This document shows, piece by piece, positions 571-42,808 of a stretch of 53,673 nt of DNA. The translations under genes were made by a program, and so were the position numbers. This DNA comes from Escherichia phage vB_EcoM_SA91KD. The first letter of the stretch is position 1. Every line of letters begins with the position of its first letter. The notes under the pieces are model-generated. The model was not told the DNA's origin and searched no databases. It was given only the letters and a program-made list of their open reading frames with translations. Where the stretch lies: sequence record NC_079183; one strand, given 5' to 3'.

Positions 571-589
571 GATATTAGTTGGACGTGAA
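571..589 (+). promoter_or_regulatory. Variant copy of the recurring promoter-like box (gATATTAGTTGGAcGTGAa)
   Basis: Matches the ACATTAGTTGGATGTGA consensus seen at 10 other sites; about 160 nt upstream of the RNAP start. Confidence 0.35.
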
Positions 590-748
590 TTGTGTAATGG
601 CTACGCTATTATAATCCGTTTCAGTTAAATCATACACAATCTTGGAGACTTACAAATTGACTAGACTACTATCACCACTCAAACTATCAAATCCGTTGTT
701 CCTGCTATCACTGCTCTGGTATACCGTGCCAAAGAGAAACAGAACTAT

Positions 749-2602
749 ATGCAGCCCCAGACTTGTGCTATTGCTGCCTTAGCCATCTTCAAGATGATGA
801 CGTCTTTCACTCGTGATGACGTTGTTCCTGCCATCGCGATGGTTGAACTGGCTTCTGCTTCTATTGCTGATGCCAACCGTTATAACAACGATTTGAAAGC
901 AATGCACTATGTTGACCCAGCTATCAACCTGATTGGTTTGGCTAAGCACTTTGGCTTCATCACCATGAACGAAGACAAGTCATTCCAACAAACTGATACA
1001 TGGGTTGAACTGGTTACAACCAAAGATACCGCAGTGCCATTCACTGAGCGTGTCACTACTGAATCTCGTCGCAAGCCTTTCGTTAAAGGTGGCAAAGTTA
1101 AGCCATCCAAAACTCTGAAAGCTGCAATCGAATTCCTGCAAGATACTGAGTACCATGTGGAGACTGAGATGGTTCGCATCATTCAGTCCATGCTTGAGCA
1201 ACGTACTTATGGTGGCTTGCAGATGCCAGAAGCTATCCAGACTGAACTCCATGTTTGGAACAATGCTGTAGCAATGATGAATCAGGACACACTGTATTCT
1301 GACTACTTTGCTGACAACCGTGGTCGCCTGTATCATGTAGCATGTGCTGGTCCTAACCCACAATCATCTGACTTTGCTCGTTGCTTGTATTCTCACAATG
1401 TTGAGAACATCGTTAAGAAGTTTAACGAAGATGGTTCTACTACCATTGCATACAATATGTTCATGGCAGAGCTGGAAGATATTTCCGGTGGTGAATGGTG
1501 CACTGCTAAGCGTTTGACTTATGTTGCTCAGAATCCTGCTGGTTCACTTGCTCGCATGATGAACATGCCTAAAGCTGAACGTCCTTCCAAGCCATTCACT
1601 TATGTTCGTCTGGCTCTGGATTGGTTCAAGTTTGAGACTACAGGTGAATGCGATTCTCGTGTAGGCTTTGGCTTAGATGCTAAATGCTCTGGTACTCAAT
1701 ATCTGGCATTCATTGCTGGTAATATGGAAATGGCTCGTGCTACAGGTCTGGTTGATTCTGAGACTAAAGCATCTGACCCATACCAGCTATCTCTTCGTGA
1801 ACTGTTGAAGTTATTAGACCGTTCTTCAATGAAACCATCTCCTGAAATCATGGATGAATTCTTGAATCCGAAAGCTGGTCGTAAGTTTATCAAAACTCCA
1901 TACATGGCTATCCAATATGGTGGTGGTAAAGCTGCATTAACTGGTTCTTCTGACTTCATTAGCTACATGACAGAAGCTCTCCAGATTCCTATGGAGAAAG
2001 CTGAGGCATTTGCTGAACTGTGTGTAGAAGCAATCCATAACGCATTGGGTGCTAAGATTAACATGTTCATCGAGAAAGCTGCTGATGCTGCATACAACCG
2101 TTGTGTTGAACTTGGTAAAGAGTACATCACATACCGTCACACTGATGGTCAGGTTGTAATGAAGCCTTGCTTCCCATCTCGTGAAATCTGTGAGGCATTC
2201 AGCATTCGTGTTGACTCTCAAACTCGTGTCATCTTTGGTCAGATTCAGGAGAACAAGCCTTGGACCATTCGTGAGTCCAACCCAACTAAAGAAGAGTTCA
2301 AGCGTACCTTCGTTGTTAACTACATTCAAGGTATTGACGCATTGGTTGCTCGTACTGTTGCAGTTAAAGCTAAAGAAGCTGGTCTTCGTGGCTTTACTTC
2401 AATCCATGATTGTTTCCGTTGCTGCTTAGCTGATGCTCCACGTATGATGGAAGTTATTCGTGCAGCATATGTTGAAATCTTTGTAACCAACAATCAATTC
2501 GAGAATCTGTCTAAGCAACTTGGTGGCATTCAGATGTATCATGAGAACATCGTAACCGAAGAGCTTCTGATGAGCGAACACGCTTACTACTTCTGTCAAT
2601 AA
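749..2602 (+). CDS. T7-family single-subunit RNA polymerase, compact form (617 aa)
   Basis: Motifs DNRGR (T7 DWRGR), GLDAKCSGTQ (motif A), RKFIKTPYMAIQYGG (motif B), SIHDCF (motif C). In-frame stop at 662-664 blocks any upstream extension. Confidence 0.85.
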   Translation: MQPQTCAIAALAIFKMMTSFTRDDVVPAIAMVELASASIADANRYNNDLKAMHYVDPAINLIGLAKHFGFITMNEDKSFQQTDTWVELVTTKDTAVPFTERVTTESRRKPFVKGGKVKPSKTLKAAIEFLQDTEYHVETEMVRIIQSMLEQRTYGGLQMPEAIQTELHVWNNAVAMMNQDTLYSDYFADNRGRLYHVACAGPNPQSSDFARCLYSHNVENIVKKFNEDGSTTIAYNMFMAELEDISGGEWCTAKRLTYVAQNPAGSLARMMNMPKAERPSKPFTYVRLALDWFKFETTGECDSRVGFGLDAKCSGTQYLAFIAGNMEMARATGLVDSETKASDPYQLSLRELLKLLDRSSMKPSPEIMDEFLNPKAGRKFIKTPYMAIQYGGGKAALTGSSDFISYMTEALQIPMEKAEAFAELCVEAIHNALGAKINMFIEKAADAAYNRCVELGKEYITYRHTDGQVVMKPCFPSREICEAFSIRVDSQTRVIFGQIQENKPWTIRESNPTKEEFKRTFVVNYIQGIDALVARTVAVKAKEAGLRGFTSIHDCFRCCLADAPRMMEVIRAAYVEIFVTNNQFENLSKQLGGIQMYHENIVTEELLMSEHAYYFCQ

Positions 2603-2718
2603 GAGAAACAGGGCTGTCATCGAAAGGTGATGGCCCTTTCTTTATTCTTTATTAATTAAATCCTTTAATTCCCAATATTCAAGCAATATTGCTGCATGTA
2701 ATATTGTTTCAATATTCG

Positions 2719-2736
2719 ACATTAGTTGGATGTGAA
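2719..2736 (+). promoter_or_regulatory. Promoter-like box ACATTAGTTGGATGTGAA
   Basis: Exact consensus copy, intergenic. Confidence 0.45.
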
Positions 2737-3568
2737 GTAACAGAATACGGAGAAGTATTCCGCATGTCATGTTGAAATCATTCTAGAAACATTTCAGCAT
2801 GTCAACTAAACATACAGTGTTGTAATGATGTGGCAATCATTGAACTCCCTGTCTTTGGCCGGACAAAGTTCCAACAACCATGTGTGAAGTAGGAATTAGA
2901 TTCGAAACTGTTCTTCAACTAAAGCATGTTCAATTGCGACAATATTGCTCCATCTCCTATTATAAAGGCCCACCCACAAGCCGGGAGATAACTTTAGCAA
3001 GACTGGAACTTTTGGACATGCTTCTTTCTTTCAATCAGAATTCGAAAGAAGAGCAGAGTCGGAGCAAAGCCGCGAAACTAATCCCGTAGCCCGCCCCGAT
3101 TTTGAGCAACAAATATTGTGACAATATTGTCGCAGTATGGCATGTAAATATTGCTACAAATTGGCATGTTGGAATGTGGCAGAATTGTTAGAGGACTAAT
3201 CACCTCGAAGATACAATCGTCTACCAATCTGGCATGTTAATTTTGTAACAGTATTTGTGCCAATTTCGCATGTAATAGCTGTATCAGTATTGACCCAATA
3301 TTCTTGCAACCCGCATGAATACTGGCTTCCAGCCAAGCGAAGGCTTTATCATCGCATGTAATATTGTGACAATATTGGGATAAAACCCTTTATTTAATTG
3401 GTTTTATTATGCTGTACATGGTCGGTTTTCCGTACCTGCTTGCTCCAATCTTAATGTGCCAAATACGTTAAGTATGGGAGTAAACCTGTAATTAATGACG
3501 CATGTTTAATTGTGACAAAATTCGTCTATTTGGCAGATGAATTAGTTGCAATTAAGCATGTCCATTTA

Positions 3569-3590
3569 TCATTAGTTGTATGTGAATAAG
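3569..3590 (+). promoter_or_regulatory. Promoter-like box variant (tCATTAGTTGtATGTGAa)
   Basis: Close match, about 280 nt upstream of the first early gene. Confidence 0.35.
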
Positions 3591-3873
3591 ACCAAATCTC
3601 TGTAAATTCTGCTGAAATTGTGTGACAGATTTTAGAGAGATTATGTCTCCAAGCTAATCATTGTAGTTTTTAGACACTTTGTGTGTCACATATATAGCCT
3701 GTGAAAAACGTGTGGTATATTGCTGGATTGCGACGCGCCCACCAGACTAGGAAGTCACTGACGGCGGCACACAGGAATACTATATAACTCCCTACAACTT
3801 TAAGGTGGATTGAGGTAAGACAAGACCTCCACAATCGTTCTGTAGGGAGTTTTCTTTAACTTAGGAGAATAAA

Positions 3874-4092
3874 ATGACTCGTTTTAAAGATTTGGAAGAT
3901 GGTGCAATCTTCTTTACGCGTGGCGGAGAACATCTGCAAAAAGTTTTGGAAGATGACATTAATGTAAATGCTGTATTCGTTGGTGATTCTAGCATTGGTG
4001 TTTTATTAAATGACAATGAAAGAACTTTTACAGAAGAGGAGTTTAAAGAAATCTCAGCTTCTGATTCAGTTCAAGAGCCAATTTCAGTTTAA
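3874..4092 (+). CDS. Hypothetical early protein (72 aa, acidic)
   Basis: ATG preceded by aggag RBS; first gene after the non-coding region. Confidence 0.6.
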   Translation: MTRFKDLEDGAIFFTRGGEHLQKVLEDDINVNAVFVGDSSIGVLLNDNERTFTEEEFKEISASDSVQEPISV

Positions 4093-4130
4093 TATGGGGG
4101 GGGGAGTAACCCTCCAACTTCGGAGCTATA

Positions 4131-4382
4131 ATGGACACCATCAACAAACGTGTAAAATTTGCTGACCTGTATGAAGGTCAAATATTCACTTATAATTCTA
4201 TCAAGTGTATTAAGGTAGTGGGTGAGTGTGGTTTATACAACACTGTAAGATTTCACGACCCAAGCCGGGCATGTAAACTTAAAGACAGTGATGTTGTTGA
4301 AATCGAAATCGCATTAGAGCCAGATGGTTCAAATGATGAAATCATTCTGCGTAAAACTGTTGGATACACTAAAGGATTCTAA
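4131..4382 (+). CDS. Hypothetical early protein (83 aa)
   Basis: ORF with RBS; tightly packed operon. Confidence 0.55.
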   Translation: MDTINKRVKFADLYEGQIFTYNSIKCIKVVGECGLYNTVRFHDPSRACKLKDSDVVEIEIALEPDGSNDEIILRKTVGYTKGF

Positions 4383-4384
4383 TC

Positions 4385-7975: not shown

Positions 7976-7992
7976 ACATTAGTTGGATGTGA
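7976..7992 (+). promoter_or_regulatory. Promoter-like box ACATTAGTTGGATGTGA
   Basis: Exact consensus, intergenic, about 75 nt upstream of the SSB-like gene. Confidence 0.45.
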
Positions 7993-8064
7993 GAGACAAA
8001 GCTATTCCGTGGTTAGCAATGTCACTGAAACTTAAACTGTAATTAACTTAAGAGAATCTTAATC

Positions 8065-8436
8065 ATGGCACAATATTCAGATGTAAACACTGGCATCATC
8101 GGTCCTAACGGCTTCAAGAAAGACCCAAAACATCCCGACATTCGTGGACGTATTAACGTTGACGGAATCTGGTATTGGGTATCTGGTTGGAACAAGCAAG
8201 CAAATGGTAATGAATTTACCTCGCTGGCACTCACCATCATGACCCAAGAACAGGTCGATGAAATGATGCGCAAGCGTGAAGAGAAAGCTAAAGCCAAAGC
8301 TCAACCTCAAGCCGCTGCACAACAGCAACGTCAGCAACCTTCTGCTGCACAGCAACAGCAAGCTCCTGCTCAACAACAGCAGAGTAATTACAATCCAAAC
8401 GAGCCGAAAGACTTCGACGACGACATTCCATTCTAA
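8065..8436 (+). CDS. SSB-like protein with Gln-rich linker and host-type acidic tip DFDDDIPF (123 aa)
   Basis: C-terminus PNEPKDFDDDIPF matches the conserved SSB tail of enterobacterial SSB; compact N-terminal beta-rich domain. Confidence 0.65.
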   Translation: MAQYSDVNTGIIGPNGFKKDPKHPDIRGRINVDGIWYWVSGWNKQANGNEFTSLALTIMTQEQVDEMMRKREEKAKAKAQPQAAAQQQRQQPSAAQQQQAPAQQQQSNYNPNEPKDFDDDIPF

Positions 8437-10569: not shown

Positions 10570-10978
10570 CGTTAAGCTGGGCCAACGCTCCCTTGACCGA
10601 CTCAAAGGTGTAAATCCTTCATTGGTGGCAGTTTTCAAGCGTGCATGTGAAACAATGCCGTTTGACGTAACTGTTCTTGAAGGATTGCGCACTTATGAGC
10701 GTCAACAAGAGCTTTTAAAGCAAGGTGCAACCAAAGTTCCAGTTAGCCGACACATGTCAGGCAACGCTTTAGATATTGCACCATATCCAATTGACTGGAA
10801 TGACCTCGAACGATTCAAAGTTTTAGCTCATCATATGTTCAAAGCTGCAAAAGAGCTTGGAATTACCATTCGTTGGGGTGGGAACTGGAGCCGTATTGAT
10901 GAAAATCAGCCGTATCCACCACTTGCACCAGGTAAGAAGAAGCTGATTGATATGCCGCACTTCGAACTTCCAGCATAA
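10562..10978 (+). CDS. Peptidase M15 (L-alanyl-D-glutamate peptidase type, T5-endolysin-like), 138 aa
   Basis: Zinc-site motifs SRHMSGNALDI and DMPHFE; region DIAPYPIDWNDLERF...KELGITIRWGGNW resembles the phage T5 endolysin (recalled from memory). Confidence 0.7.
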   Translation: MSNVKLGQRSLDRLKGVNPSLVAVFKRACETMPFDVTVLEGLRTYERQQELLKQGATKVPVSRHMSGNALDIAPYPIDWNDLERFKVLAHHMFKAAKELGITIRWGGNWSRIDENQPYPPLAPGKKKLIDMPHFELPA

Positions 10979-12044: not shown

Positions 12045-12110
12045 TTCCAGGCGGGTTTCTTCGAAGTGCCAAGCGGGTTTTGTACTCGCATTGGCCTTCT
12101 GCTTTAGTCT

Positions 12111-12130
12111 GAAACATTAGTGGGATTTGA
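12111..12130 (+). promoter_or_regulatory. Promoter-like box variant (gaaACATTAGTgGGATtTGA)
   Basis: First of three tandem copies in a non-coding kilobase. Confidence 0.4.
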
Positions 12131-12254
12131 TTCTGACCACTTAGGGAAGAAAGGCATTATACACTTATCGCCAAATGGGTGTCAAGCACTTTCTTCATTT
12201 ATTTTAATTTATTCTTATTATTCTCTTTGTTTGGAATATTGGAATAATTCTGAA

Positions 12255-12271
12255 ACATTAGTTGGAATTGA
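12255..12271 (+). promoter_or_regulatory. Promoter-like box (tctgaaACATTAGTTGGAaTTGA)
   Basis: Second tandem copy; shares the tctgaaac prefix with the 12111 and 14552 copies. Confidence 0.4.
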
Positions 12272-12391
12272 ATTAGTGTAATTCTGTCTGTACTCTTTTC
12301 CATTAGCAATTGTAGAGGGAGTCCACTGCAATAAGCGCAGCCTCAAACAACCAAGTCTGGACAACTTGGGAAGAGAGTGCAGCACAAAATT

Positions 12392-12408
12392 ACATTAGTT
12401 GGAGTTGA
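12392..12408 (+). promoter_or_regulatory. Promoter-like box (tACATTAGTTGGAgTTGA)
   Basis: Third tandem copy. Confidence 0.4.
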
Positions 12409-12690
12409 AGAAACAACATCAGATAATAACTTTGTAACTCGGTAGACCGTTGCGGCCGCATCGTGCGAGAATGTTCGACTCATTCTACAAAGTTATTTTC
12501 GATGGAATGTTTCCATCATATACATTTATCTTTTAACATAGGCCAAAGGGCCGGAATACTTATTCGCAGAAAAGCTATTCACTTGTTATAGGCGATGTAT
12601 TGGGATGAATTGGAACTAAATAAGCAAGCTGTTAGGGCTGAATAATTAGAGGGTTATGCCTCATGCTTATGTTAGTCATTCGAAAATAGG

Positions 12691-13024
12691 TTTGTGCCAC
12701 AAGCCGCTGGTGCTCTGAGGGAGTCGGACAAACAGGGCTTAGAGTGGCATAATCCGCACAAAACCGCGCCACCAGCTATGCCAAAGCGGGTGGTTTGGGT
12801 GAATGTATTGGGAAGGGTTGCAAAGCCTCTGTGGCCTCCGCAGCTTGCCAGGCTGCTATGCAGATATGATGCGTAGGTCGCACCCTAACGGGAGTAACCC
12901 TTCGCCAATGCAGTTATCCAGAATTGACACAAACGGTAGGCAGCGGCCCGATTTTCGGCCTTCCTGCGCTACTCTGTGGCCTGTTCCTGGGCCAAAAGAT
13001 GAGAAGAGAAGTCACAAACACTGA
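12691..13024 (+). ncRNA. GC-rich non-coding island; candidate structured RNA or small inserted element
   Basis: Visibly GC-richer than flanks; track ORFs here translate to Pro/Arg/Trp-rich nonsense; internal repeat ctctgtggcct twice; flanked by imperfect direct repeats (attcgaaaatagg / aatcgaaaattgg). Confidence 0.3.
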
Positions 13025-13565: not shown

Positions 13566-13852
13566 ACTTACAAGACAAATCTAAAGAAGAGTTGATTGAG
13601 ATTATCCAGAAAGAGCACGAACTCGCTGGCATCACAATTAACTTTGAACTCCAGGCAATGCAAGCTGTTGCTTTGGGTCATGGTCTAATGGCTACACTCA
13701 TTCATGCCAAGAATGTGTTAGGCGTTGACAACGAAAAATACCAAATTCTGGAGAAAGCTGCGCAAGAGCGGATTTCGCAGTGCTTGGTGACATTAGTTGA
13801 TTTGGGAATCGACGCAGAAACTGCGAACAAACGTATCCTACAAGGCCACTAA
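13526..13852 (+). CDS. Hypothetical protein (96-108 aa; start ATG 13526 or TTG 13562)
   Basis: Track ORF; a promoter-like box (gACATTAGTTGAttTGgg, 13788-13805) lies inside its 3' end. Confidence 0.45.
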   Translation: MDNKPTSLRSSILNLQDKSKEELIEIIQKEHELAGITINFELQAMQAVALGHGLMATLIHAKNVLGVDNEKYQILEKAAQERISQCLVTLVDLGIDAETANKRILQGH

Positions 13853-13853: not shown

Positions 13854-14528
13854 ATGTCTTATCATGATGATGACAAAGAGATTGCACTATCAACGTGTAA
13901 GCAATGGCTCAATGATAATGATGCCGTCTATCTTGCCAAGGAAGATGTTATCATTATGTGGGTCCATTTTAATCCAGAATCGAAGCGCGGTGAGTGGCAA
14001 CGCTACAAGATGAAAGAGGCTTGTCGCATAATTAAAGCCACACGCGCTGGCTTCTCTGCTATGAAATACATCAAGCCAGAGATGCTGATGCTTGCTGCAC
14101 AGGAAGAAGAACGTGCATATAAGCAAGCTGTTAAATCTCGTTCAACTGTTCCTCCAGAGTTCTTTAATTTGGAGCGCGCTGGACACTTCAACAATTTAGA
14201 AATGTTGACACTGTGCCTGTTGCAAGAATTAGTTGGAAGAGGACAAAACATTGAAGCTGTTTGTCTTGGAGAACTCATGAAAGAGTTGTTCTCGGCAAAG
14301 GGCTTTGCTGTGCCAAACCGGACTTTACGCTGGAAATTGTTGCGAGCAGTCGCGCAAGAAGCTGGTGTAGTTGTTCGTGACAGAACAAACCGATTCACTG
14401 TAACTGGAGTTGGGCGTTTTGTAGCAATCCAGATTGAGGGTTATGACGAATCAATCATCACTGAACTCACTGTCGCTGAGACAAAGGATTTAGTAAACAA
14501 AACACTAGAACGATTCAATAGATATTGA
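13854..14528 (+). CDS. Hypothetical protein (224 aa)
   Basis: ATG 2 nt after the upstream stop (track ORF starts at TTG 13797); no recognisable motif. Confidence 0.55.
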   Translation: MSYHDDDKEIALSTCKQWLNDNDAVYLAKEDVIIMWVHFNPESKRGEWQRYKMKEACRIIKATRAGFSAMKYIKPEMLMLAAQEEERAYKQAVKSRSTVPPEFFNLERAGHFNNLEMLTLCLLQELVGRGQNIEAVCLGELMKELFSAKGFAVPNRTLRWKLLRAVAQEAGVVVRDRTNRFTVTGVGRFVAIQIEGYDESIITELTVAETKDLVNKTLERFNRY

Positions 14529-14557: not shown

Positions 14558-14575
14558 ACATTAGTTGGATGTGGA
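14558..14575 (+). promoter_or_regulatory. Promoter-like box (tctgaaACATTAGTTGGATGTGgA)
   Basis: Near-exact consensus about 80 nt upstream of the 14652 gene. Confidence 0.45.
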
Positions 14576-15888: not shown

Positions 15889-15895
15889 ATTATTT

Positions 15896-15982
15896 GGACG
15901 AGTAGCTCAGAAGGTCTGCTCCAGAGCTGGTAGAGCAATCTGTTCGACAGATGTGTCGTTGGTTCGAATCCAACCTCGTCCA
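15896..15982 (+). tRNA. tRNA-like element with atypical internal structure (possible pseudo-tRNA or non-canonical tRNA)
   Basis: Canonical 7-bp acceptor stem (GGACGAG / CTCGTCC) and T-arm (GTTGG-TTCGAAT-CCAAC) with discriminator A; the 55 nt between them cannot be folded by eye into standard D and anticodon arms. Anticodon not assignable. Confidence 0.35.
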
Positions 15983-16015
15983 CCCACTTTAATAATTCGC
16001 AATACTGGAGTCCTT

Positions 16016-20739: not shown

Positions 20740-22674
20740 GTGTTGTATCCTTGGGAGAACATGTACGCCAGTGACATTGAAACAACTGGCCTGTTGGAGC
20801 AAATGCGTAAGCAAGCTGCACCACGTCTTCACAACATTGGATATATTGATGTTCTAACTCGTGAAGAAACTGTAATAGAGTGGACCGACAGAAAATCTAT
20901 CCAGGCATTTCTGGATACAGGCCCAACGCTAATCATGCACAACGGCGCAACCTTTGACTTTGAAGCACTGAGGTTCCTTGGTTACGACGTTTCAAAATGT
21001 ACCTTAATTGATACTTTGTTTATCAGTTGGTATCTGCAACCTCGTCGTGTTAAGCACGGCTTAGAAGGTTACGGCGAAGAGTTTGGTGTACCAAAACCAG
21101 TCATCGAAGATTGGGAAAATCAAACTCAAGAAGAGTACAACCATCGTGTGATGGAAGACTGCAAGATTCAGTTGAAGCTGTGGGAACAGCAATACATTCA
21201 ACTCTTGAAGATTTATAAATCTCCTAGCGAAGTTAAGCGCTTCGTTGAATACCTGATGACAAAAGCTCGTCAGCAAGTTATTCAGCAACGTACTCGCTGG
21301 AAGTTAAACATTGAGAAGGCATTGGCATTTAAAGCCAAACTGGAGCCAATGATTAAAGAGAAGACGGACGCATTGGAAGCATCAATGCCGCGTGTTCCGG
21401 AATATGTTATCAAGACCCGTCCAGCTAAATGCCACAAAATGAACGGGCAACTGTCTGCCACTGGAATTAAGTGGAAGGCTATTTGTGATGCAAACGGTTT
21501 GGACTGGAAAGACCCAGACCTGGCTATCAAAGTTCTTAAAGGTTATAAGAAGCCTAATGCTGGTTCACATGTTCAAATTAAGGATTGGTTGTTCAGCCTG
21601 GGTTGGGAACCGGAAACCTTTAAGTTTGACCGTAACAAGGAAACAGGTGAAACTCGCCAGATTCCACAAATCACTGTGAAGGATGAAGATGGCAATCCTG
21701 AAATATGTCCGAGCTTGCATAAGCTGGCGGAAAGAAACCCCGACTCTGGTATTCAACATCTTATTGGGATGGGCGTGTATAAACACCGTCTGTCTGTTGT
21801 TAATGGCTTCCTTCGCGACGTCGATGAAGATGGGTTCCTTACTGCACGATGCGGTGGCCTTACCAATACTTTACGCCTTAAGCATCGCGAACTTGTTAAC
21901 CTCCCTTCTATTCGTGTATTTGGCGGTGAAGAACTGCGTTCAATGCTGGAAGCGTGGCGTGAAGACTACGAACAGTTAGGCTCTGATTTGTGTTCTCTGG
22001 AAGACCGATGTAAGCACCACTTCCAGTGGATGTATGACCCTGAATACGTTAAGAAGCAGTTGGCACCAGACTATGATGCTCACCTTGCAATCGGCGTAAT
22101 TGGTGGATTTATTACAGAACAGGAGTCTCAGGACCACAAGGACGGAATTAAGAAGTGTAAACAACGTCCAATGTTTAAGACCACAAACTATGCTTGTCAG
22201 TATGGTGCTGGTATACCAACTGTAGCCCGTTCTGCTGGTTGCGACCAGAATACTGCTGCACGACTGCATAAAGCATATTGGGACTTGAACTGGTCTATTA
22301 AAGAGATTGCTGCAAACACCAAAGTTGTAACAATTGATGGTCAGATGTGGCAACAGAATCCGGTAAACAAATTCTGGTATTCATTGCGTACAGAGAAAGA
22401 CCGATTCTCCACATTGTGTCAGGGTACTGGTGCATATGTGTTTGATATTTGGTGTAACAACATCATTGCAATTTGTAATGAGCGTTGGGGATGTGACCCA
22501 CTTCTGTCCGGGCAATTCCACGACGAATTGATTCTCCAAGTTAAGAAAGGTTTCCGTGATTTGTGGACGGACTTGCTTAATGAGGCAATGGACCGAACCA
22601 ACAAAGAACTTAAACTTAACCGCGATTGTGCATGTGATGTGCAGTTCGGTGATAACTACGCAGAGATTCACTAA
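20740..22674 (+). CDS. Family A DNA polymerase with 3'-5' exonuclease domain (T7 gp5-like), 644 aa
   Basis: Exo I DIETTGL; polymerase motif B KTTNYACQYGAG; motif C QFHDE. GTG start per track; ATG at 20761 possible. Confidence 0.85.
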   Translation: MLYPWENMYASDIETTGLLEQMRKQAAPRLHNIGYIDVLTREETVIEWTDRKSIQAFLDTGPTLIMHNGATFDFEALRFLGYDVSKCTLIDTLFISWYLQPRRVKHGLEGYGEEFGVPKPVIEDWENQTQEEYNHRVMEDCKIQLKLWEQQYIQLLKIYKSPSEVKRFVEYLMTKARQQVIQQRTRWKLNIEKALAFKAKLEPMIKEKTDALEASMPRVPEYVIKTRPAKCHKMNGQLSATGIKWKAICDANGLDWKDPDLAIKVLKGYKKPNAGSHVQIKDWLFSLGWEPETFKFDRNKETGETRQIPQITVKDEDGNPEICPSLHKLAERNPDSGIQHLIGMGVYKHRLSVVNGFLRDVDEDGFLTARCGGLTNTLRLKHRELVNLPSIRVFGGEELRSMLEAWREDYEQLGSDLCSLEDRCKHHFQWMYDPEYVKKQLAPDYDAHLAIGVIGGFITEQESQDHKDGIKKCKQRPMFKTTNYACQYGAGIPTVARSAGCDQNTAARLHKAYWDLNWSIKEIAANTKVVTIDGQMWQQNPVNKFWYSLRTEKDRFSTLCQGTGAYVFDIWCNNIIAICNERWGCDPLLSGQFHDELILQVKKGFRDLWTDLLNEAMDRTNKELKLNRDCACDVQFGDNYAEIH

Positions 22675-22946
22675 TGCAAACTGTATATTCTATTTTCGAT
22701 ATGCAGGAATTAGAGCACCATATGTTTGCTGCTGATTCCGAAGTTCCAGCAAAGGACGCCGTAATGGCGTTCCTTGAAAAGATTAAGGACGAGGTGTTCG
22801 CTTCGTCTGACCCACAGTCTCAAGCATTCAACGACGAGACATTCAAAAACATCCAAACTTTAATTTCGGCAACGTCTTCAATTGAAGAGCTGTCCGAAGC
22901 ATTAGTTGGATATGACTTCCGGCTTGCTATGTTGCAAGTCGACTAA
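22674..22946 (+). CDS. Small acidic protein (90 aa)
   Basis: ATG overlaps the polymerase stop; a promoter-like box sits in its 3' end. Confidence 0.5.
   Translation: MQTVYSIFDMQELEHHMFAADSEVPAKDAVMAFLEKIKDEVFASSDPQSQAFNDETFKNIQTLISATSSIEELSEALVGYDFRLAMLQVD
22899..22916 (+). promoter_or_regulatory. Promoter-like box (gCATTAGTTGGATaTGAc) embedded in coding sequence
   Basis: Consensus match about 60 nt upstream of the 22977 gene. Confidence 0.35.
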
Positions 22947-22976: not shown

Positions 22977-23843
22977 ATGGCATTTGCTGCTCCTACACTG
23001 GCCTCGAACAAGACTCCTTCTGCTGCACCATTACTGGAAGCGGGTGGTTATCCTGCTCGTGTTTGCCGTATTATCGACCTGGGCTTACAGCCTGGTTCTG
23101 CTAAATATCCTACCCCGTCCCTGAAACTTCTGGTGACTTTCGAACTGCTCGACGAGTACATGAAAGAAGTTGACAGTGAAGGTAAAATGGTCATGGTTCA
23201 AGACCCAGACGAAGATGACGGCATCATGATGGCGAAGAATCTTGAAGACAAGCCGCGTTGGTTTGACTTTGAGTTTACCTATAATGCTGATGGTTTCATG
23301 GGTGAGAACTCCCACATCTACAAATTCGCTAAGGCGATTGATGCACTGGAAGTTAAACCTAATCTGGAACAAGGTATTCAGGGCCATCCTGCCAAGAACC
23401 TGCCGGATTGGTTGGGCGAACCTCTGATTGTTGGCATTGTTCAATATACCAAGCAGTCAGGTAAGAATGCTGGCCAGGTTGCAAACAAAGTTGCTACCTT
23501 CTCTCCGATGAAATCTAAGGAGAAGAAAGAAGCTAAAGCTCTGGTTAACCCGACTGTCTTCTTTGACATGTCTGAGCCGGACTTAGAAGTATTCAACAAA
23601 CTGCCAGGTGGCGAATCTCCGTATGCAATCAAGAACCGTATTACTTCCGGTGTTGATTTCTACAAGACTAAGCTGTCTGCACTGTTAGGCGGTAAACCTG
23701 CCGATGAAGGCGCTGTACCGAATCAGGCTTCTGATGAAGAAGTTGATGCAGCTATGAAAGCTGAACTGGAAGCACAGGCTGCTGCAAAAGCACAGCGTGA
23801 AGCGGAAGGTGGTGCTGCTGGCGGTACGGGTATGCCGTTCTAA
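22977..23843 (+). CDS. Abundant DNA-metabolism protein, putative ssDNA-binding/annealing protein (288 aa)
   Basis: Between polymerase and exonuclease, as gp2.5 sits in T7-like modules; high-expression codon choice; Ala/Glu-rich tail ending in Phe. No firm motif. Confidence 0.4.
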   Translation: MAFAAPTLASNKTPSAAPLLEAGGYPARVCRIIDLGLQPGSAKYPTPSLKLLVTFELLDEYMKEVDSEGKMVMVQDPDEDDGIMMAKNLEDKPRWFDFEFTYNADGFMGENSHIYKFAKAIDALEVKPNLEQGIQGHPAKNLPDWLGEPLIVGIVQYTKQSGKNAGQVANKVATFSPMKSKEKKEAKALVNPTVFFDMSEPDLEVFNKLPGGESPYAIKNRITSGVDFYKTKLSALLGGKPADEGAVPNQASDEEVDAAMKAELEAQAAAKAQREAEGGAAGGTGMPF

Positions 23844-33083: not shown

Positions 33084-33658
33084 CGCCACCTCCAGCTCCT
33101 ACAGTATCTGCTGTTGTAGGGGCTGTAACTGCGGACGCATCTGCCTCTGATGCTACTGTAACTGTGGACAAACTGTTTGAATTTGAGAACTCCGCAGCAA
33201 CAGATTATAACTTCGCTGTTACACCTCCTGTGACTGGTGTTTCTGTGGCGGCAAACGGCACTGTGACTGTACTTAGTGCAACGACTACAGCCACTTCTGC
33301 GATAATCAAGGCAACGAATAAAACAGAATCTGGTGTAACTGCATCTAAACAGATTACGATTAAGCCTAAACCTCCTGCACCTACGGTGTCTGCTGTAGCT
33401 GGAGTTGTAACGGCTGATGCGTCTTCTACTGATGCCACTGTAACTGTAGACAAGCTGTTCAAGTTTGGTAACTCTACAGCAACAGACTACACCTACGCTA
33501 TTACGCCTCCTGTGACTGGCGTTTCTGTGGCTGCAAATGGTACTGTAACCGTCTTGAATGAGGCAACTACCGATACCTCTGCCACGGTTAAGGCAACAAA
33601 CAAAACAACCTCCAGCGTGACTGCAACTAAAGAAATTGCTATTACGCCGAAGTCTTAA
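33077..33658 (+). CDS. Frameshift extension ORF encoding two tandem Ig-like (BIG-type) domains
   Basis: Open in the -1 frame from the slippery site; no ATG or RBS of its own; two about 95-aa repeats (PPAPTVSAV...TVDKLF.F.NS.ATDY...ITPPVTGVSVAANGTVTVL...KATNKT). Confidence 0.55.
   Translation, partial: AVTPPPAPTVSAVVGAVTADASASDATVTVDKLFEFENSAATDYNFAVTPPVTGVSVAANGTVTVLSATTTATSAIIKATNKTESGVTASKQITIKPKPPAPTVSAVAGVVTADASSTDATVTVDKLFKFGNSTATDYTYAITPPVTGVSVAANGTVTVLNEATTDTSATVKATNKTTSSVTATKEIAITPKS
33086..33655 (+). repeat. Tandem duplication, two units of about 285 nt each
   Basis: Units at about 33086-33370 and 33371-33655 are clearly homologous at nucleotide and protein level. Confidence 0.8.
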
Positions 33659-39010: not shown

Positions 39011-42000
39011 ATGAAGACAATGGCTAATCAAAAAGATTTAATGAAGTTGAGCGTTAATGAGTTAATTGCATTAGGCTCTCAAAGCGGTCTGACTTTCCAT
39101 GCTGGTATGAAGAAGTCGCACATGGTTCAACAACTTAGTGCGAGCGCTGCTTCGGGATGGCTGGATACAAATGCAGAATTAATGGGTGGGTCGTTCGAAG
39201 ATGACAGTTTAATTACTGAATCTTTGGGTGACTCTTCCATGATTTCAGACGCTGCCCACATTGCACAAGTGCTTTCAAGTGCTGGCTACACAGAAGCATT
39301 TCATGCAGCAATGAATGGCCCATCACACCATGTAGAAGCTGTTCACGCATACATGGAAAGGCTTGGCGTTAGCACAGATGATGTGTGGATGCACATGCCA
39401 AAGCCAAATCCGAACTTACCGCAAGGTAGCTTCAACATGCTTAATGCCTATATGCGAGATACTTTGCAAGGGCATCAAGATATTATGCCAGAAATCCCAG
39501 GTCACTATTCTGGTGATATTATGGCAGAATACTCCACCAACCGTGGAAACATTGCTGACTCCTACAACTACATGGCTCACATGTATGTTGACCGTGAGCA
39601 ATACAGCAATCATGAACAATACGCAAGAGACATTAGTCGAGTTGCCAAACGTCTGGAACGAGAGTTACCCTCAGCCTTTAAGGAAGTTGGGTATACATCC
39701 GCATCTAATGTAGGAAATAAATCGGCCCCACATATTTCTTACATGGATGCACTACCTCAAATTGGTTCTCCTTCAATTGTTTCTGGCATTGCACATCCTC
39801 GTGCACCACTTAACGCATCTGGACTTCCTCTTGGTTCTTATGGTTCTGGCATAAATCCAGAATACTCCCTCACCGCATCACTAACTGGTGGCACAGGTTG
39901 GAGCGAGCCAAGCAAGGCTTTGTATTCTTCTATTAGTGAAGCTGTTAAATCTGCTGCCAAAGTTTATTCTGGCTCCAAAGGGATGCTGAATACTCGTCAT
40001 GAAGTATCTGACCGTGACATGATTATGGACAGCGCAACTCGCTATACAGATTTGGAAGAAGCCAGAAGCGGATACGAAAACCTCCGTTCTGAACTTGCAG
40101 ATGAGCCAGCTTATTCTGCATCAAGTGTTCGAGCTATCCTCGAAAACACTTATGATAAAATGGATGCCGAACCTGTTCGCATTCCAAAGATGAAGGGAGC
40201 TTCACAGCGAGTCGATAAAGATTCACTGTCAACATCTACAGATTTTACAGCACAACTTGGAGAGGCCACCAATTGGAACTCTGCAAGAATGCGTCGTGAG
40301 GAACTTGCGATTGCAAACATGGATAGTGCTGGATTCCGTGATGTATCAGACTATGGTACAGGACGTTCCGAGTCCCCCGTCCGATTCCATGACTTAGAAC
40401 AGGGTAGCCAAGAGTGGCTAGACTTCCGTAAAAATTATGACATAACTGGCTCAACTGTTGGAACCTTCTTAGGAAACAACCCATACACCCGACCTTGGGC
40501 TGGGATGATTGATAAGATTGGCCTATCTCGTAGTAAAGAGCACAGCGATTTCACCAAGAAGATGTTCGCTGATGGTCACAGGACGGAAGAAGAAGCACGC
40601 GCCCGTGTTAGCAAGGAATTTGGATTTGATATCAAACAAACTGGCGCTATAACAAATGACAACTATCCCGCCTTCATGTATTCTCCTGATGGTCTTATTG
40701 GGGATGATGCCATTTGGGAGCACAAGAATCCGCAAAGGGCTGGTAAGTTTGCTGACCTTCTTAAAGGCGACCATCCAGACTACATGGACCAAATTCAATT
40801 TGGTATGCACGTTTCTGGCCGTTCTCGTGCTTTGTTCTCACAAACCATCAACGACGAAACACGTTCACAGTGGATTGAGAAGGACGAAGGATGGTACGAA
40901 AGAAACCGAAATCGCCTTGATTCTGTGCTTGGCCGTCTTGATGCTGGGCGAGAGTTTGTTAGAAACAATGCTGGATTAGAACGAGAAGAGCTGATTGCTG
41001 GTGCAAGAAGTGCAATGACTGGTGATGGAATCTGGAAAGATATTCGTCAAAGGTCTACTCGTGGCTATTCTGCTGCTGCTGGCACTCCAGAAGACCCGTT
41101 TATTGGTTCACGTTCTTCGTACAATCCAGGGGCATCTTACTCTGACTACAAGCCAAACTTTGTAATGCACGAGCAAAACTTTCCGGCAACCACTGGAAAT
41201 GGTGACACCGGAAATGACTCGATGGCATTGTCTGTTAAGAAAGGTATTCTTGCTGCCCAGGAAGAAAACAGGCAGAAAGGTATCGGTGCAGATGCAGACT
41301 TTGATGGCAAAGCCGACTCAATGGGTTGGAACCGTGAAAGATTTGATGCTGCCAATGGCGGTGGATATTCTGGCGGTGGCGGTGGTCGTGGCGGCAACTT
41401 CACAAGTGGTGGCAACTACTATGATGACTACGGTCGCATGGGTGGTTCGTTAGCTGCTGGCATTGCTGGTGGCAGTATTGGTTCAGCAACCAACGGAGTT
41501 ATGCAAGCATTGATGGCAACTCCTGCGGGACGTATGGCTGCTGTAGGCATTGGTGCTATTCAGATTGGCAATGAAGCTGCTGAATACATGAATGACTTTA
41601 TCGGCAACTCGCTTGATGCTGGTGTGATAAATCCTAATGAATACTCTTCTATGTCGCAAGGCTTGGAGATGTTAGGACTCAACTCACAACAAGCGGCACG
41701 TCTGAATCAAACCACACATAGTGCCTATAACACCATGCTTAACGGCGACCCTAGCGCCGCTGTGAACATCGTTCGCGGCAGTAGGGGATTGCTCACCATA
41801 GGTGATATTCGTGCGACAGGCGGCGACCCTGTGGCCCTGGCTCGCATCATGCAGGAAAGGGGCAAGGAACGTGGCTGGAGCCAGGCCCGTATCGCAGGTG
41901 CTGCCGAAATGGCTGGCCTGAATGGGATGGCGCGAGCCTACGACCGCACGGAATACAGCCATGAGCAAGCTGGCTCGGTGGTAGAAGCAGGTAGAAACTC

Positions 42001-42736
42001 CGACTTTGCCGAAGGTATGGCCCAATCGGAAATGTTGCAGGGAAGCCGCGCACGGGTGCTGCCAAGCTACAACGTGCCACAAAGTGTCTTATCTAATGGT
42101 GCTTCTGTATTTGAGGCTGGCAGTGATGCACTTGATGGTGTACGCACTGGATTCAACAGGACACGAGAGTTTGCTGGAAGTGTTTACGACTTTATTGCTC
42201 AGGAAGAATCTGGTGGTCGTGAATACAACAAAGATGGTTCTCGTGTAACAAGTCGCACTGGTGCTCGTGGAGTAATGCAGATTCTCCCTTCGACTGCCCG
42301 TGACCCAGGATTTGGAATCAGGCCGTCTGATGGAACTCCAGAAGATGATGCACGAGTTGGTCGTGAATACTATGACGCAATGTACAAGCGTTATGGCGAC
42401 CACGAAAAGGCAATGGCTGCTTACACAGATGGTCCTGGCACTGTTGACAAAGCTGTTGATAAGAATGGATTGGATTGGCTGACTGCTGTTCCTGTACAAG
42501 CACAGAATCGCGTCAAAGCATTCCGTGAATGGTCCAAGTCTTCTCAATCTTTGGAAGAAGGTGCTACAGGGTTTACTCGTAATGGAATGTCATACGGCCA
42601 AACCCAAACTGTTGTTAATGTTAAGATTGATGCTAAGGTCAACAACCAGACTGCTTCTGCTACAGTTGCAATTCCTGGTGGTCAGACTGTGACTCAACAA
42701 ATGAACATGAATAACGGTGCGCAACAAAGAAGGTAA
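39011..42736 (+). CDS. Tape-measure-position multidomain virion protein with embedded YqaJ-like nuclease domain and C-terminal lytic transglycosylase domain (1241 aa)
   Basis: Central YqaJ motifs: W..FRKNYDITGSTVGTFLGNNPYTRPW, FMYSPDGLIGDDAIWEHK (D...E.K), YMDQIQFGMHVSG. Gly-rich segment GGGYSGGGGGRGGNF. C-terminal SLT-like EESGGREYN...GARGVMQILPSTA. Confidence 0.7.
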   Translation: MKTMANQKDLMKLSVNELIALGSQSGLTFHAGMKKSHMVQQLSASAASGWLDTNAELMGGSFEDDSLITESLGDSSMISDAAHIAQVLSSAGYTEAFHAAMNGPSHHVEAVHAYMERLGVSTDDVWMHMPKPNPNLPQGSFNMLNAYMRDTLQGHQDIMPEIPGHYSGDIMAEYSTNRGNIADSYNYMAHMYVDREQYSNHEQYARDISRVAKRLERELPSAFKEVGYTSASNVGNKSAPHISYMDALPQIGSPSIVSGIAHPRAPLNASGLPLGSYGSGINPEYSLTASLTGGTGWSEPSKALYSSISEAVKSAAKVYSGSKGMLNTRHEVSDRDMIMDSATRYTDLEEARSGYENLRSELADEPAYSASSVRAILENTYDKMDAEPVRIPKMKGASQRVDKDSLSTSTDFTAQLGEATNWNSARMRREELAIANMDSAGFRDVSDYGTGRSESPVRFHDLEQGSQEWLDFRKNYDITGSTVGTFLGNNPYTRPWAGMIDKIGLSRSKEHSDFTKKMFADGHRTEEEARARVSKEFGFDIKQTGAITNDNYPAFMYSPDGLIGDDAIWEHKNPQRAGKFADLLKGDHPDYMDQIQFGMHVSGRSRALFSQTINDETRSQWIEKDEGWYERNRNRLDSVLGRLDAGREFVRNNAGLEREELIAGARSAMTGDGIWKDIRQRSTRGYSAAAGTPEDPFIGSRSSYNPGASYSDYKPNFVMHEQNFPATTGNGDTGNDSMALSVKKGILAAQEENRQKGIGADADFDGKADSMGWNRERFDAANGGGYSGGGGGRGGNFTSGGNYYDDYGRMGGSLAAGIAGGSIGSATNGVMQALMATPAGRMAAVGIGAIQIGNEAAEYMNDFIGNSLDAGVINPNEYSSMSQGLEMLGLNSQQAARLNQTTHSAYNTMLNGDPSAAVNIVRGSRGLLTIGDIRATGGDPVALARIMQERGKERGWSQARIAGAAEMAGLNGMARAYDRTEYSHEQAGSVVEAGRNSDFAEGMAQSEMLQGSRARVLPSYNVPQSVLSNGASVFEAGSDALDGVRTGFNRTREFAGSVYDFIAQEESGGREYNKDGSRVTSRTGARGVMQILPSTARDPGFGIRPSDGTPEDDARVGREYYDAMYKRYGDHEKAMAAYTDGPGTVDKAVDKNGLDWLTAVPVQAQNRVKAFREWSKSSQSLEEGATGFTRNGMSYGQTQTVVNVKIDAKVNNQTASATVAIPGGQTVTQQMNMNNGAQQRR

Positions 42737-42741
42737 GGAGT

Positions 42742-42757
42742 TGGGGAGAAATCCCCA
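42742..42757 (+). terminator. Hairpin tgggga-gaaa-tcccca followed by ctttccttt
   Basis: 6-bp stem, GAAA tetraloop, T-rich tail just after the tape-measure stop. Confidence 0.55.
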
Positions 42758-42768
42758 GCTTTCCTTTA

Positions 42769-42784
42769 CATTAGTTGAATATGT
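42769..42784 (+). promoter_or_regulatory. Promoter-like box variant (ttACATTAGTTGaATaTGta)
   Basis: Only copy noticed in the late region; about 25 nt upstream of the baseplate gene block. Confidence 0.4.
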
Positions 42785-42808
42785 ATTAATTTCAATAGGT
42801 ATATCGCA

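What the first reader, a model, noticed from the sequence alone, without database searches (positions are those of the whole stretch)
571..42788. Recurring 17-18 bp box ACATTAGTTGGATGTGA: candidate phage-specific promoter
At least 11 same-strand copies at about 571, 2719, 3569, 7976, 12111, 12255, 12392, 13788, 14558, 22899 and 42769, with a shared tctgaaac prefix in three. Almost all sit in intergenic gaps ahead of gene blocks. Length and conservation resemble single-subunit RNAP promoters rather than sigma70 promoters. Most copies are in the early/middle region and only one was noticed in the late region, which may reflect temporal classes or a second late-promoter type.
Basis: seen in the sequence. 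Interest (0 to 1): 0.55.

Follow-up and report, generated by a model that had tools for sequence, protein, structure and literature searches.

The report
Predicted phage RNA polymerase promoters
The repeated 17-base box is real and is very probably the promoter read by this phage's own small T7-like RNA polymerase. The same boxes were already annotated as "putative phage promoters" in the reference phage phiEcoM-GJ1, so this is a sound but ordinary, still untested, prediction.

Summary
**Observation:** confirmed. The box (A)CATTAGTTGGAnnTGA(A) has 10 strong copies, all on the + strand. They score 22-30 bits; the best other site scores 13, and 0.31 matches are expected by chance. The eleventh claimed copy (about 13788) is at chance level and is not conserved.

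**What the window is:** a Chaseviridae phage, genus Carltongylesvirus (95% identical to DE15/ST32, 92% to phiEcoM-GJ1). It encodes a 617-aa single-subunit RNA polymerase with the T7 RNAP fold.

**Evidence for the promoter reading:**
- One contiguous conserved block, with no -35/-10 pair.
- All copies point the same way as the genes.
- 9 of 10 lie between annotated genes, and three follow hairpins.
- Across four genera, at the same gene junctions, the box is 80% identical and its flanks 31-44%.
- Relatives whose RNAP is 39-55% identical keep TTAGTTG but change the 3' half. Relatives with a different hairpin at the position of the T7 specificity loop lack the box.

**Prior knowledge:** GenBank EF460875 (phiEcoM-GJ1, 2008) annotates the same boxes at the same positions as "putative phage promoter 1-9". 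No experimental proof turned up; ICTV 2022 says Chaseviridae promoters are "not yet identified". No second late-region motif exists.

**Verdict:** already known as a prediction; low interest.

The parts
572..588 (+). Box copy ATATTAGTTGGACGTGA, 24.3 bits. It lies upstream of the RNAP gene and directly after the hairpin at 545-564.
   Evidence: Conserved upstream of the RNAP gene in GJ1 (571, not annotated there), DE15 (568), Myduc (172) and Okapia (355).
749..2602 (+). Gene for the single-subunit RNA polymerase (617 aa as it reads in this window), the presumed reader of the boxes.
   Evidence: Pfam RNA_pol PF00940, 65 bits. AlphaFold model pLDDT 91.7. Best structural matches are T7 RNAP, E 1e-18, 14-16% identity. 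A profile of the family aligns to T7 RNAP residues 316-590 and 793-858.
2610..2637 (+). Terminator-like hairpin (12 pairs, then a T-rich tail) just after the RNAP stop codon and 80 nt before box 2719.
2719..2735 (+). Box copy with a perfect consensus, 29.7 bits. Equals GJ1 'putative phage promoter 1'.
   Evidence: A box sits just after the RNAP gene in Y2, Myduc and Okapia too.
3569..3585 (+). Box copy TCATTAGTTGTATGTGA, 25.3 bits. Equals GJ1 promoter 2. It lies 289 nt upstream of the first ORF of the early gene block (3874).
7976..7992 (+). Box copy with a perfect consensus, 28.6 bits. Equals GJ1 promoter 3. It lies 73 nt upstream of the ORF at 8065 (SSB homologue).
   Evidence: A box sits before the SSB gene in Y2, Myduc and Okapia.
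12114..12130 (+). First of three tandem box copies in the non-coding stretch 12045-12802. 24.9 bits. Equals GJ1 promoter 4.
12255..12271 (+). Second tandem copy, 27.4 bits, 141 nt after the first. Its 5' part equals GJ1 promoter 5.
12392..12408 (+). Third tandem copy, 26.3 bits, 137 nt after the second. GJ1 lacks the 137 nt between copies 2 and 3 and carries a single hybrid box.
14558..14574 (+). Box copy ACATTAGTTGGATGTGG, 28.4 bits. Equals GJ1 promoter 7. It lies 30 nt after one ORF and 78 nt before the next.
   Evidence: A box sits at the same junction in Y2, Myduc and Okapia.
22899..22915 (+). Box copy GCATTAGTTGGATATGA, 24.8 bits. Equals GJ1 promoter 8. It lies inside the 3' end of the small ORF 22674-22946, 62 nt before the ORF at 22977.
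42737..42762 (+). Terminator-like hairpin (11 pairs) between the 1241-aa tail gene and box 42768. A hairpin of different sequence sits at the same place in Y2, Myduc and Okapia.
42768..42784 (+). The only late-region box, ACATTAGTTGAATATGT, 22.4 bits (the weakest). Equals GJ1 promoter 9. It lies 25 nt before the ORF at 42809, the counterpart of the gene annotated 'baseplate hub' in Y2.
14226..14243 (+). Doubtful ORF-internal box-like site GAATTAGTTGGAAGAGGA, 12.8 bits (chance level here). Equals GJ1 'promoter 6'. It encodes ELVGRG, and the codons TTA GTT GGA are kept in four genera.
13790..13806 (+). 13.0 bits, inside an ORF, not conserved. Most likely chance.

Best explanation
The boxes are promoters for the phage's own single-subunit, T7-family RNA polymerase (ORF 749-2602).

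Proposed sequence of events (inferred):
1. Host RNA polymerase makes the first RNAP transcripts.
2. The phage enzyme binds the duplex box. The invariant 5' half TTAGTTG is probably read by the beta-hairpin at residues 477-508, which sits where the T7 specificity loop lies.
3. The enzyme melts the 3' half (nnTGA) and starts at or just after the conserved TGA(A), often on a purine-rich start such as GAAAC.
4. It then transcribes rightward through the co-oriented gene blocks.

Roles of individual copies (inferred):
- The copy at 572 would give positive feedback on the RNAP gene.
- The copies at 2719 to 22899 would drive early and middle genes.
- Late genes would be served by read-through plus the single weak copy at 42768, which sits behind a hairpin.

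Shown here: the motif, its statistics, its placement, its conservation, and the RNAP fold. Inferred: binding, the start point, and timing.
For: - **Statistics:** 10 copies against 0.31 expected, all on the + strand. Scores are bimodal: 22-30 bits against 13 or less.
- **Architecture:** one conserved block of about 17 nt. No other column from -20 to +40 exceeds 0.8 bit, so there is no -35/-10 pair.
- **Placement:** 7 of 10 lie outside even a permissive ORF set that covers 90% of the genome (P = 1e-5). Against the GJ1/DE15 annotation, 9 of 10 are intergenic. Boxes 572 and 42768 directly follow hairpins, and box 2719 follows the RNAP terminator.
- **The enzyme:** it has the T7 RNAP fold, with the catalytic motifs invariant.
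- **Conservation:** at five shared gene junctions in four genera (this phage, Erwinia Y2, Proteus Myduc, Pectobacterium/Dickeya Okapia) the box is 80% identical. Flanks are 40% upstream, 44% over the first 10 nt downstream and 31% beyond that. The box is also the top de novo intergenic motif in each of those genomes.
- **Change with the RNAP:** contigs whose RNAP is 55%, 45% and 39% identical keep TTAGTTG but have 3' halves GGGnTTGAA, AAtATGGA and ATAATGGA. The contig whose RNAP has a different hairpin sequence (L132), and the Vibrio and Aeromonas Nefertitivirinae phages, lack the box; the two phages have other recurring motifs instead.
- **Independent opinion:** the GJ1 record annotates the same boxes as putative phage promoters. 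[quoted passage not shown]
Against: - There is no direct evidence. No transcription start mapping or in vitro transcription for any Chaseviridae phage turned up in the held literature, and ICTV 2022 states the promoters 'have not yet been identified' (PMC12842549).
- The base right after the box is A in 7 of the 10 window sites (21 of the 28 sites in four genera). One base further on, G, the start base T7 RNAP prefers, occurs in only 2 of the 10 window sites (10 of 28), and T in 5 of 10. The start point is therefore unclear.
- Purine enrichment after the box is modest: 0.58 against 0.52 for the genome.
- In Myduc, the box before the gene corresponding to the window's ORF 42809 ends 2 nt before the start codon, which would give a leaderless message.
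- The RNAP lacks about 230 residues of the T7 N-terminal domain, so T7-style upstream recognition cannot be assumed.
- Only one weak copy serves 30 kb of late genes.
Confidence: 0.85

Rival explanations
1. The boxes are binding sites for another phage DNA-binding protein, such as a replication initiator (iterons) or a transcription regulator, and not for the RNAP itself.
For: Three copies are tandem at 137-141 nt spacing in a 760-nt non-coding stretch. That stretch also holds an AT-rich tract and a perfect sigma70 consensus on the minus strand, which looks origin-like.
Against: - Seven copies are dispersed singly at gene-block boundaries.
- All ten share the gene orientation, and the motif is asymmetric, unlike typical dimer operators.
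- The window has a separate palindromic family (AATATTG-N3-CAATATT) that fits the operator role better.
- Loss or change of the box tracks RNAP divergence.
Confidence: 0.06
2. The boxes are promoters for the host RNA polymerase redirected by a phage factor, as with T4 MotA boxes, and not for the phage polymerase.
For: The box contains TTGGAT, which matches 4 of 6 positions of the -35 hexamer TTGACA. ICTV says host machinery takes part in transcription.
Against: No -10-like element is conserved at any fixed distance downstream. The sigma70 pattern scan finds fewer promoter-like sites than shuffles do, and none at the boxes. The phage carries its own RNAP, which would otherwise have no candidate promoter.
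Confidence: 0.05
3. The box acts in RNA, for example as a processing or stability signal inside longer transcripts.
For: Strand specificity and intergenic position would also fit an RNA signal. ACAT...ATGT could form a 4-bp stem.
Against: The two 3' stem positions (box positions 12 and 13, counting the first A as 0) vary while their partners are invariant, so the stem does not covary. The distance to the next start codon ranges from 25 to about 400 nt. No Rfam family matches.
Confidence: 0.03

Closest known systems
'Putative phage promoters 1-9' of Escherichia phage phiEcoM-GJ1 (GenBank EF460875.1; Jamalludeen et al. 2008, Appl Environ Microbiol 74:516)
   Same: Same sequence and same positions relative to genes. 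GJ1 promoters 1, 2, 3, 4, 5, 7, 8 and 9 correspond to window 2719, 3569, 7976, 12114, 12255/12392, 14558, 22899 and 42768. GJ1 promoter 6 corresponds to the weak site at 14226.
   Different: The window has a third tandem copy (12392), because a 137-nt segment between boxes is absent from GJ1. The copy upstream of the RNAP gene (572) is present in GJ1 at 571 but is not annotated there. GJ1 promoter 6 does not stand out statistically in this window.
Promoters of T7-group single-subunit RNAPs (T7, T3, SP6, K11; Autographiviridae)
   Same: - A single conserved block of about 17-23 bp.
- Co-oriented with the genes and sited at gene-block boundaries, often behind terminators.
- Tandem copies in a non-coding stretch, which recalls the T7 primary origin with phi1.1A/phi1.1B (from my own knowledge).
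- Read by a T7-fold enzyme.
- From memory, TTAG.TG resembles positions -15 to -9 of the SP6 and K11 promoters (ATTTAGGTG, AATTAGGGC). This is a lead, not a test.
   Different: - The RNAP is only 14-16% identical to T7 RNAP and about 230 residues shorter at the N-terminus.
- There is no TATA-like -4..-1 element and no conserved GGGAGA start.
- In this family the 5' half is the conserved part and the 3' half drifts.
- The host virus is a myovirus.
Hairpin promoters of the phage N4 virion RNAP
   Same: They are also read by a divergent T7-family polymerase.
   Different: N4 promoters are DNA hairpins (as I recall). The box here has no conserved hairpin. A hairpin-containing motif (GGCTC-TTC-GAGCC) does recur in the distant Chaseviridae phage Aeromonas pAh6-C, but not in this window.

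Membership tests
phiEcoM-GJ1-type putative phage promoter (Chaseviridae, Cleopatravirinae) | Matches the consensus (A)CATTAGTTGGAtgTGA(A) | tested here: met
   10 sites at 22-30 bits. The GJ1 features extracted from the record have the same sequences.
phiEcoM-GJ1-type putative phage promoter (Chaseviridae, Cleopatravirinae) | Occupies the same positions relative to genes as in the reference genome | tested here: met
   One-to-one correspondence with GJ1 promoters 1-5 and 7-9. The same junctions carry a box in Y2, Myduc and Okapia.
T7-type single-subunit RNAP promoter | The genome encodes a T7-family single-subunit RNAP | tested here: met
   PF00940. The model matches T7 RNAP at E 1e-18. Profile alignment to T7 RNAP residues 316-590 and 793-858.
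T7-type single-subunit RNAP promoter | One contiguous conserved block rather than two hexamers | tested here: met
   Information content is confined to 17 columns, and the flanks stay below 0.8 bit.
T7-type single-subunit RNAP promoter | Same orientation as the genes, located between genes | tested here: met
   10 of 10 on the + strand. 7 of 10 lie outside a permissive ORF set, P = 1e-5, and 9 of 10 outside annotated genes.
T7-type single-subunit RNAP promoter | The motif co-varies with the polymerase across relatives | tested here: met
   The 3' half changes in relatives with RNAP at 66%, 55%, 45% and 39% identity. The motif is absent where the hairpin at the specificity-loop position differs. 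The sample is small and no formal statistic was computed.
T7-type single-subunit RNAP promoter | Transcripts start at a fixed base at the 3' edge of the block | not testable with these tools
   No transcriptome or 5'-end data turned up for any Chaseviridae phage.
T7-type single-subunit RNAP promoter | The purified polymerase initiates specifically from the block | not testable with these tools
   This is a bench experiment. ICTV 2022 says the promoters are not yet identified.
Bacterial sigma70 promoter | -35 and -10 hexamers 16-18 bp apart | tested here: not met
   No second conserved element within -20..+40. No pattern hit at the boxes.
Replication-origin iterons | Copies clustered at one locus, usually in both orientations or as close arrays | tested here: not met
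   Only 3 of 10 are clustered (12114-12408). The rest are single and dispersed over 42 kb.

The most novel reading that the evidence does not exclude
The tandem array of three boxes at 12114-12408 may be more than a set of promoters. Together with the adjacent AT-rich tract (12190-12235) and the perfect minus-strand sigma70 consensus (12185-12156), it could be a transcription-activated replication origin.

Separately or in addition, the third box could drive a small structured non-coding RNA at about 12422-12500. Two substitution pairs between this phage and GJ1/DE15 in the outer stem, and one more in an inner stem, preserve base pairing.

More broadly, a compact 617-aa RNAP that lacks much of the T7 N-terminal domain may recognise its promoter in a way not seen in T7.
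Probability: 0.2. Interest if true: 0.45.

Novelty: already known. Interest (0 to 1): 0.2.

Why it matters
Chaseviridae are myoviruses that carry a podovirus-type RNA polymerase, and the ICTV profile still lists their promoters as unidentified. The box is the obvious candidate. It is short, highly conserved and paired with an unusually small polymerase (617-648 aa against 883 in T7).

If it were confirmed at the bench, it would add a compact RNAP-promoter pair that may not cross-react with T7, which could be useful for expression systems. It would also settle how this family times its genes.

As a genome-scan finding it adds little. The same prediction has been in GenBank since 2008. The only increments here are the comparative support and the view of how the motif drifts as the RNAP diverges.

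Tried and rejected
- **Exact-pattern scan of IMG/VR** for CATTAGTTGGANNTGA.
- **First two de novo motif scripts.** One timed out, and the other was swamped by coding low-complexity repeats. Restricting the search to non-ORF sequence worked.
- **The original GJ1 paper and the Erwinia Y2 paper** are not held, so the authors' wording on the promoters is known only through the GenBank features.
- **The ST32, Yersinia-phage, Tiny and ETEC papers** contain nothing on Chaseviridae promoters.
- **Second late-promoter motif.** After masking the boxes, nothing recurs in 22-53.6 kb except ribosome-binding contexts and a coding tandem repeat at 33088-33651.
- **tRNA-like reading of the element after box 12392.** ARAGORN and Rfam, even on a 136-nt search space, give no tRNA match, only chance-level snoRNA hits.
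- **Hairpin within the box.** Rejected, because the 3' stem positions vary without compensation.
- **Purine-rich initial transcribed region.** Only a weak enrichment, 0.58 against 0.52.
Full report
**1. The observation**

A search for ACATTAGTTGGATGTGA with up to three mismatches finds 10 sites, all on the + strand: 572, 2719, 3569, 7976, 12114, 12255, 12392, 14558, 22899 and 42768. Dinucleotide-preserving shuffles give 0.31.

Aligning the sites shows one conserved block, (A)CATTAGTTGGA-t-g-TGA(A). Columns from -20 to -1 and from +18 to +40 carry less than 0.8 bit each.

A 19-nt weight matrix gives a clean two-class picture:

| Class | Score |
|---|---|
| The 10 box sites | 22.4-29.7 bits |
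| Next best + strand sites (13790, 14226) | 13.0 and 12.8 bits |
| Best - strand site | 10.2 bits |
| Best site in shuffled sequence | mean 12.9, maximum 16.8 bits |

It also has no counterpart in close relatives. The 'tctgaa' prefix at three sites is correct. A motif search that knew nothing of the box, run on all non-ORF 16-mers, returns it as the top recurring element.

**2. What the window is**

The first 25 kb are 95% identical to Escherichia phages vB_EcoM_DE15 and ST32 and 92% identical to phiEcoM-GJ1. These belong to family Chaseviridae, subfamily Cleopatravirinae, genus Carltongylesvirus. All long ORFs are on the + strand.

ORF 749-2602 encodes a 617-aa protein:
- It matches Pfam RNA_pol only weakly (65 bits).
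- As a single sequence it matches nothing in the PDB.
- An AlphaFold model built on 35 homologues is confident (pLDDT 91.7).
- Its best structural matches are T7 RNAP and the mitochondrial RNAPs (E 1e-18, 14-16% identity, TM about 0.6).
- A profile of the family aligns to T7 RNAP residues 316-590 and 793-858.
- The invariant columns include the polymerase catalytic motifs (D310; R378/K382/Y390/G391; H553/D554).
- The part before the DxRGRxY motif is about 230 residues shorter than in T7.
- A beta-hairpin at 477-508 sits where the T7 specificity loop would be. This is inferred from the spacing to the HD motif.

**3. Placement**

I used a deliberately permissive ORF set (87 ORFs covering 90% of the genome). 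Seven of the ten boxes lie outside it (binomial P = 1e-5). Judged against the GJ1 and DE15 annotations, nine of ten are intergenic. The exception is 22899, which lies in the last 50 nt of a 90-aa ORF.

Hairpins accompany three boxes:
- Box 2719 lies 80 nt after a strong terminator-like hairpin that closes the RNAP gene (2610-2637).
- Box 572 directly follows a hairpin (545-564).
- Box 42768 directly follows a hairpin (42737-42762).

The sigma70 pattern scan finds fewer promoter-like sites than in shuffles, and none at the boxes.

**4. Comparative evidence**

The box is the top intergenic motif in three other genera:

| Phage | Consensus |
|---|---|
| Erwinia phage Y2 | RCWTTAGTTGGATGTGAA |
| Proteus phage Myduc | ACATTAGTTGAGTGTGAA |
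| Pectobacterium/Dickeya phage Okapia (= PP101 species) | RCATTAGTnGRAnGTGA |

It sits at the same junctions in all four genera:
- before the RNAP gene;
- after the RNAP gene;
- before the SSB gene;
- before the gene that follows the 243-aa ORF (window 14652);
- before the gene after the long tail gene (window 42809; annotated 'baseplate hub' in Y2).

Pooled over 27 between-genus pairs, identity is 80% in the box. It is 40% upstream, 44% in the first 10 nt downstream and 31% beyond. Before the gene corresponding to window 42809, all four genera have a GC-rich hairpin of different sequence just ahead of the box.

Metagenome contigs with more distant RNAPs show a graded series:

| Contig | RNAP identity | Motif |
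|---|---|---|
| L130 | 55% | GTTAGTTGG(G/A)nTTGAA |
| L131 | 45% | CATTAGTTGAAtATGGAgaata |
| L133 | 39% | C(A/T)TTAGTTGAT(A/T)ATGGA(A/G), seven copies, all on one strand |

The 5' half TTAGTTG is therefore retained and the 3' half drifts. These RNAPs keep an 'IRV...R-VIFG'-type sequence in the 477-508 hairpin.

Relatives with a different hairpin sequence behave differently. Contig L132 (41% identical, hairpin 'SLFLGTGEQ') has no such motif. The Nefertitivirinae have other recurring elements: GGGCTCG-N3-4-CTCGCCCACTAGA in Vibrio phage VPs20, and a GGCTC-TTC-GAGCC hairpin motif in Aeromonas phage pAh6-C.

This is the pattern expected if the polymerase reads the box. The sample is small, and I did not compute a phylogeny-corrected statistic.

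**5. Mechanism**

Best explanation (confidence 0.85): the boxes are promoters of the phage single-subunit RNAP.

The following steps are inferred, not shown:
- The hairpin at 477-508 reads the invariant TTAGTTG.
- The variable 3' half is the melting and initiation region.
- Transcription starts at or just after TGA(A).

The start base is uncertain. If the box is aligned on the SP6 and K11 promoters (recalled from memory; they share TTAG.TG at -15 to -9), +1 falls on the second base after the box. That base is G in 2 of the 10 window sites and 10 of 28 sites across four genera, T in 5 of the 10 window sites, and the base immediately after the box is mostly A.

- Box 572 would feed back positively on the RNAP gene.
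- The copies from 2719 to 22899 would drive early and middle genes.
- The 30-kb late region has only the weakest box (42768), and no other motif recurs there. Late expression probably relies on read-through.

Rivals are unlikely for the reasons given with each one: another DNA-binding protein or iterons, host RNAP with a phage factor, and an RNA-level signal.

**6. What is known**

GenBank EF460875.1 (phiEcoM-GJ1; Jamalludeen et al. 2008) carries nine 'putative phage promoter' features. Their sequences and positions are those of the window's boxes.
- GJ1 promoter 6 equals the weak ORF-internal site at 14226.
- GJ1 promoter 5 is a hybrid of window boxes 12255 and 12392, because GJ1 lacks the 137 nt between them.
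- The copy upstream of the RNAP gene exists in GJ1 at 571 but is not annotated.

[quoted passage not shown] I found no transcript mapping or in vitro work in the held literature. The element is therefore a known prediction that remains unproven.

**7. Verdict**

Novelty: already known. Interest is low (0.2).

The side observations listed separately are the more original material, but none is established. They are the palindromic operator-like family flanking the RNAP gene, the origin-like 12.0-12.8 kb region with a covarying stem, the disrupted RNAP start codon, and the distinct motifs of Nefertitivirinae.

Noticed in passing
window 90-106, 296-312, 2674-2690, 2700-2716, 3112-3128, 3123-3139, 3239-3255, 3286-3302, 3360-3376 (and 8061-8077): A second repeat family: the palindrome AATATTG-N3-CAATATT, with 10 hits against 0.40 expected. 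It is often preceded by GCATGT; 11 of the 19 + strand GCATGT copies lie in 2694-3556.

The copies flank the RNAP gene on both sides, and one ends 2 nt before box 2719. The same element recurs in Myduc (GCATGTAATATTGTGA, 7 copies) and in contig L130 (7 copies).

It looks like a set of operators for a dimeric DNA-binding protein. Which protein is unknown.
   Followed up: partly
window 12045-12802: A 760-nt stretch with no convincing gene. Besides the three tandem boxes, it holds an AT-rich tract (12190-12235) and a perfect sigma70 consensus (TTGACA-18-TATAAT) on the minus strand at 12185-12156. All genes of this genome are on the + strand. These features are conserved in GJ1 and DE15. The arrangement recalls the T7 primary origin (tandem phage promoters plus an AT-rich region); that comparison is from my own knowledge.
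   Followed up: partly
window 12422-12500 (GJ1 about 10667-10745): An inverted repeat just after box 12392 has substitutions that preserve pairing. The window reads ATAACTTTGTA/TACAAAGTTAT, and GJ1 and DE15 read AGAGCTTTGTA/TACAAAGCTCT. An inner stem also changes in step: GAATG/CATTC against GAACG/CGTTC.

The RNA fold has z = -2.4. There is no Rfam or tRNA match. It may be a small structured RNA made from the phage promoter.
   Followed up: partly
window 12272-12408 compared with GJ1: GJ1 lacks exactly the 137 nt between boxes 12255 and 12392 and carries one hybrid box. This suggests that the boxes serve as recombination points for gaining or losing segments.
   Followed up: partly
window 655-665: Relative to GJ1 and DE15, the window has a 6-nt insertion (TGACTA). 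It destroys the ATG used as the RNAP start in GJ1 and ST32 (648 and 646 aa; that ATG has a good ribosome-binding site, GGAGACTTACAAATG). It also creates an in-frame TAG, which leaves the 617-aa ORF starting at 749.

Either the first 29 residues are dispensable or this is an assembly error. Other records call the same gene at 617, 646, 648 or 704 aa.
   Followed up: partly
window about 444 to about 3055: By homology with phage Mangalitsa (3234-bp direct terminal repeat predicted by PhageTerm), the terminal repeat would span roughly window 444-3055. It would contain the RNAP gene and boxes 572 and 2719. Myduc likewise has a 3202-bp repeat that contains the RNAP gene.

Window 1-443 holds the sigma70-like promoter that GJ1 annotates (363-392). 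It would then precede only the right-hand copy of the repeat. That leaves open how the left-hand RNAP copy is first transcribed.
   Followed up: partly
L006 (Vibrio phage VPs20) 2318, 2352, 2473, 3555, 5107, 8238, 20997; L007 (Aeromonas phage pAh6-C) 23738, 24495, 24529, 25082, 28883: Phages of the other subfamily (Nefertitivirinae; RNAP about 34% identical) lack the box. They have their own one-strand intergenic motifs, starting just after the RNAP gene: (A)GGGCTCG-N3-4-CTCGCCCACTAGA in VPs20, and a GGCTC-TTC-GAGCC(A)AAAG hairpin motif in pAh6-C. These are candidate promoters of a different type. I found no mention of them in the papers I read.
   Followed up: partly
window 14226-14243: The ORF-internal site GAA TTA GTT GGA AGA GGA (ELVGRG) equals GJ1 'promoter 6'. 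It keeps the synonymous codon choices TTA GTT GGA in Y2, Myduc and Okapia, and scores about 20 bits in Myduc and Okapia. It could be a weak internal promoter or simply a conserved coding sequence.
   Followed up: partly
L130 18330-19304; L131 151-1035; proteins P0074, P0078, P0080, P0116: Some relatives of this RNAP sit on contigs that carry phage integrase genes. Others sit on bacterial chromosome-sized contigs (Hafnia alvei, Enterobacter ludwigii, Lelliottia, Pseudomonas brenneri). Chaseviridae are described as lytic, so there may be temperate or integrated relatives.
   Followed up: no
window 15895-15986: One tRNA gene, called tRNA-Ser (GCT) by ARAGORN and matched by Rfam tRNA at 45.6 bits. 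ARAGORN calls the corresponding genes in GJ1 and DE15 tRNA-Leu (CAG), while the GJ1 record annotates its gene as tRNA-Arg with a possible intron. The identity of this tRNA is unsettled.
   Followed up: no
window 33088-33651: A tandem duplication of 282 nt at 75% identity inside the late region. This is the region where Y2 annotates an Ig-domain protein.
   Followed up: no
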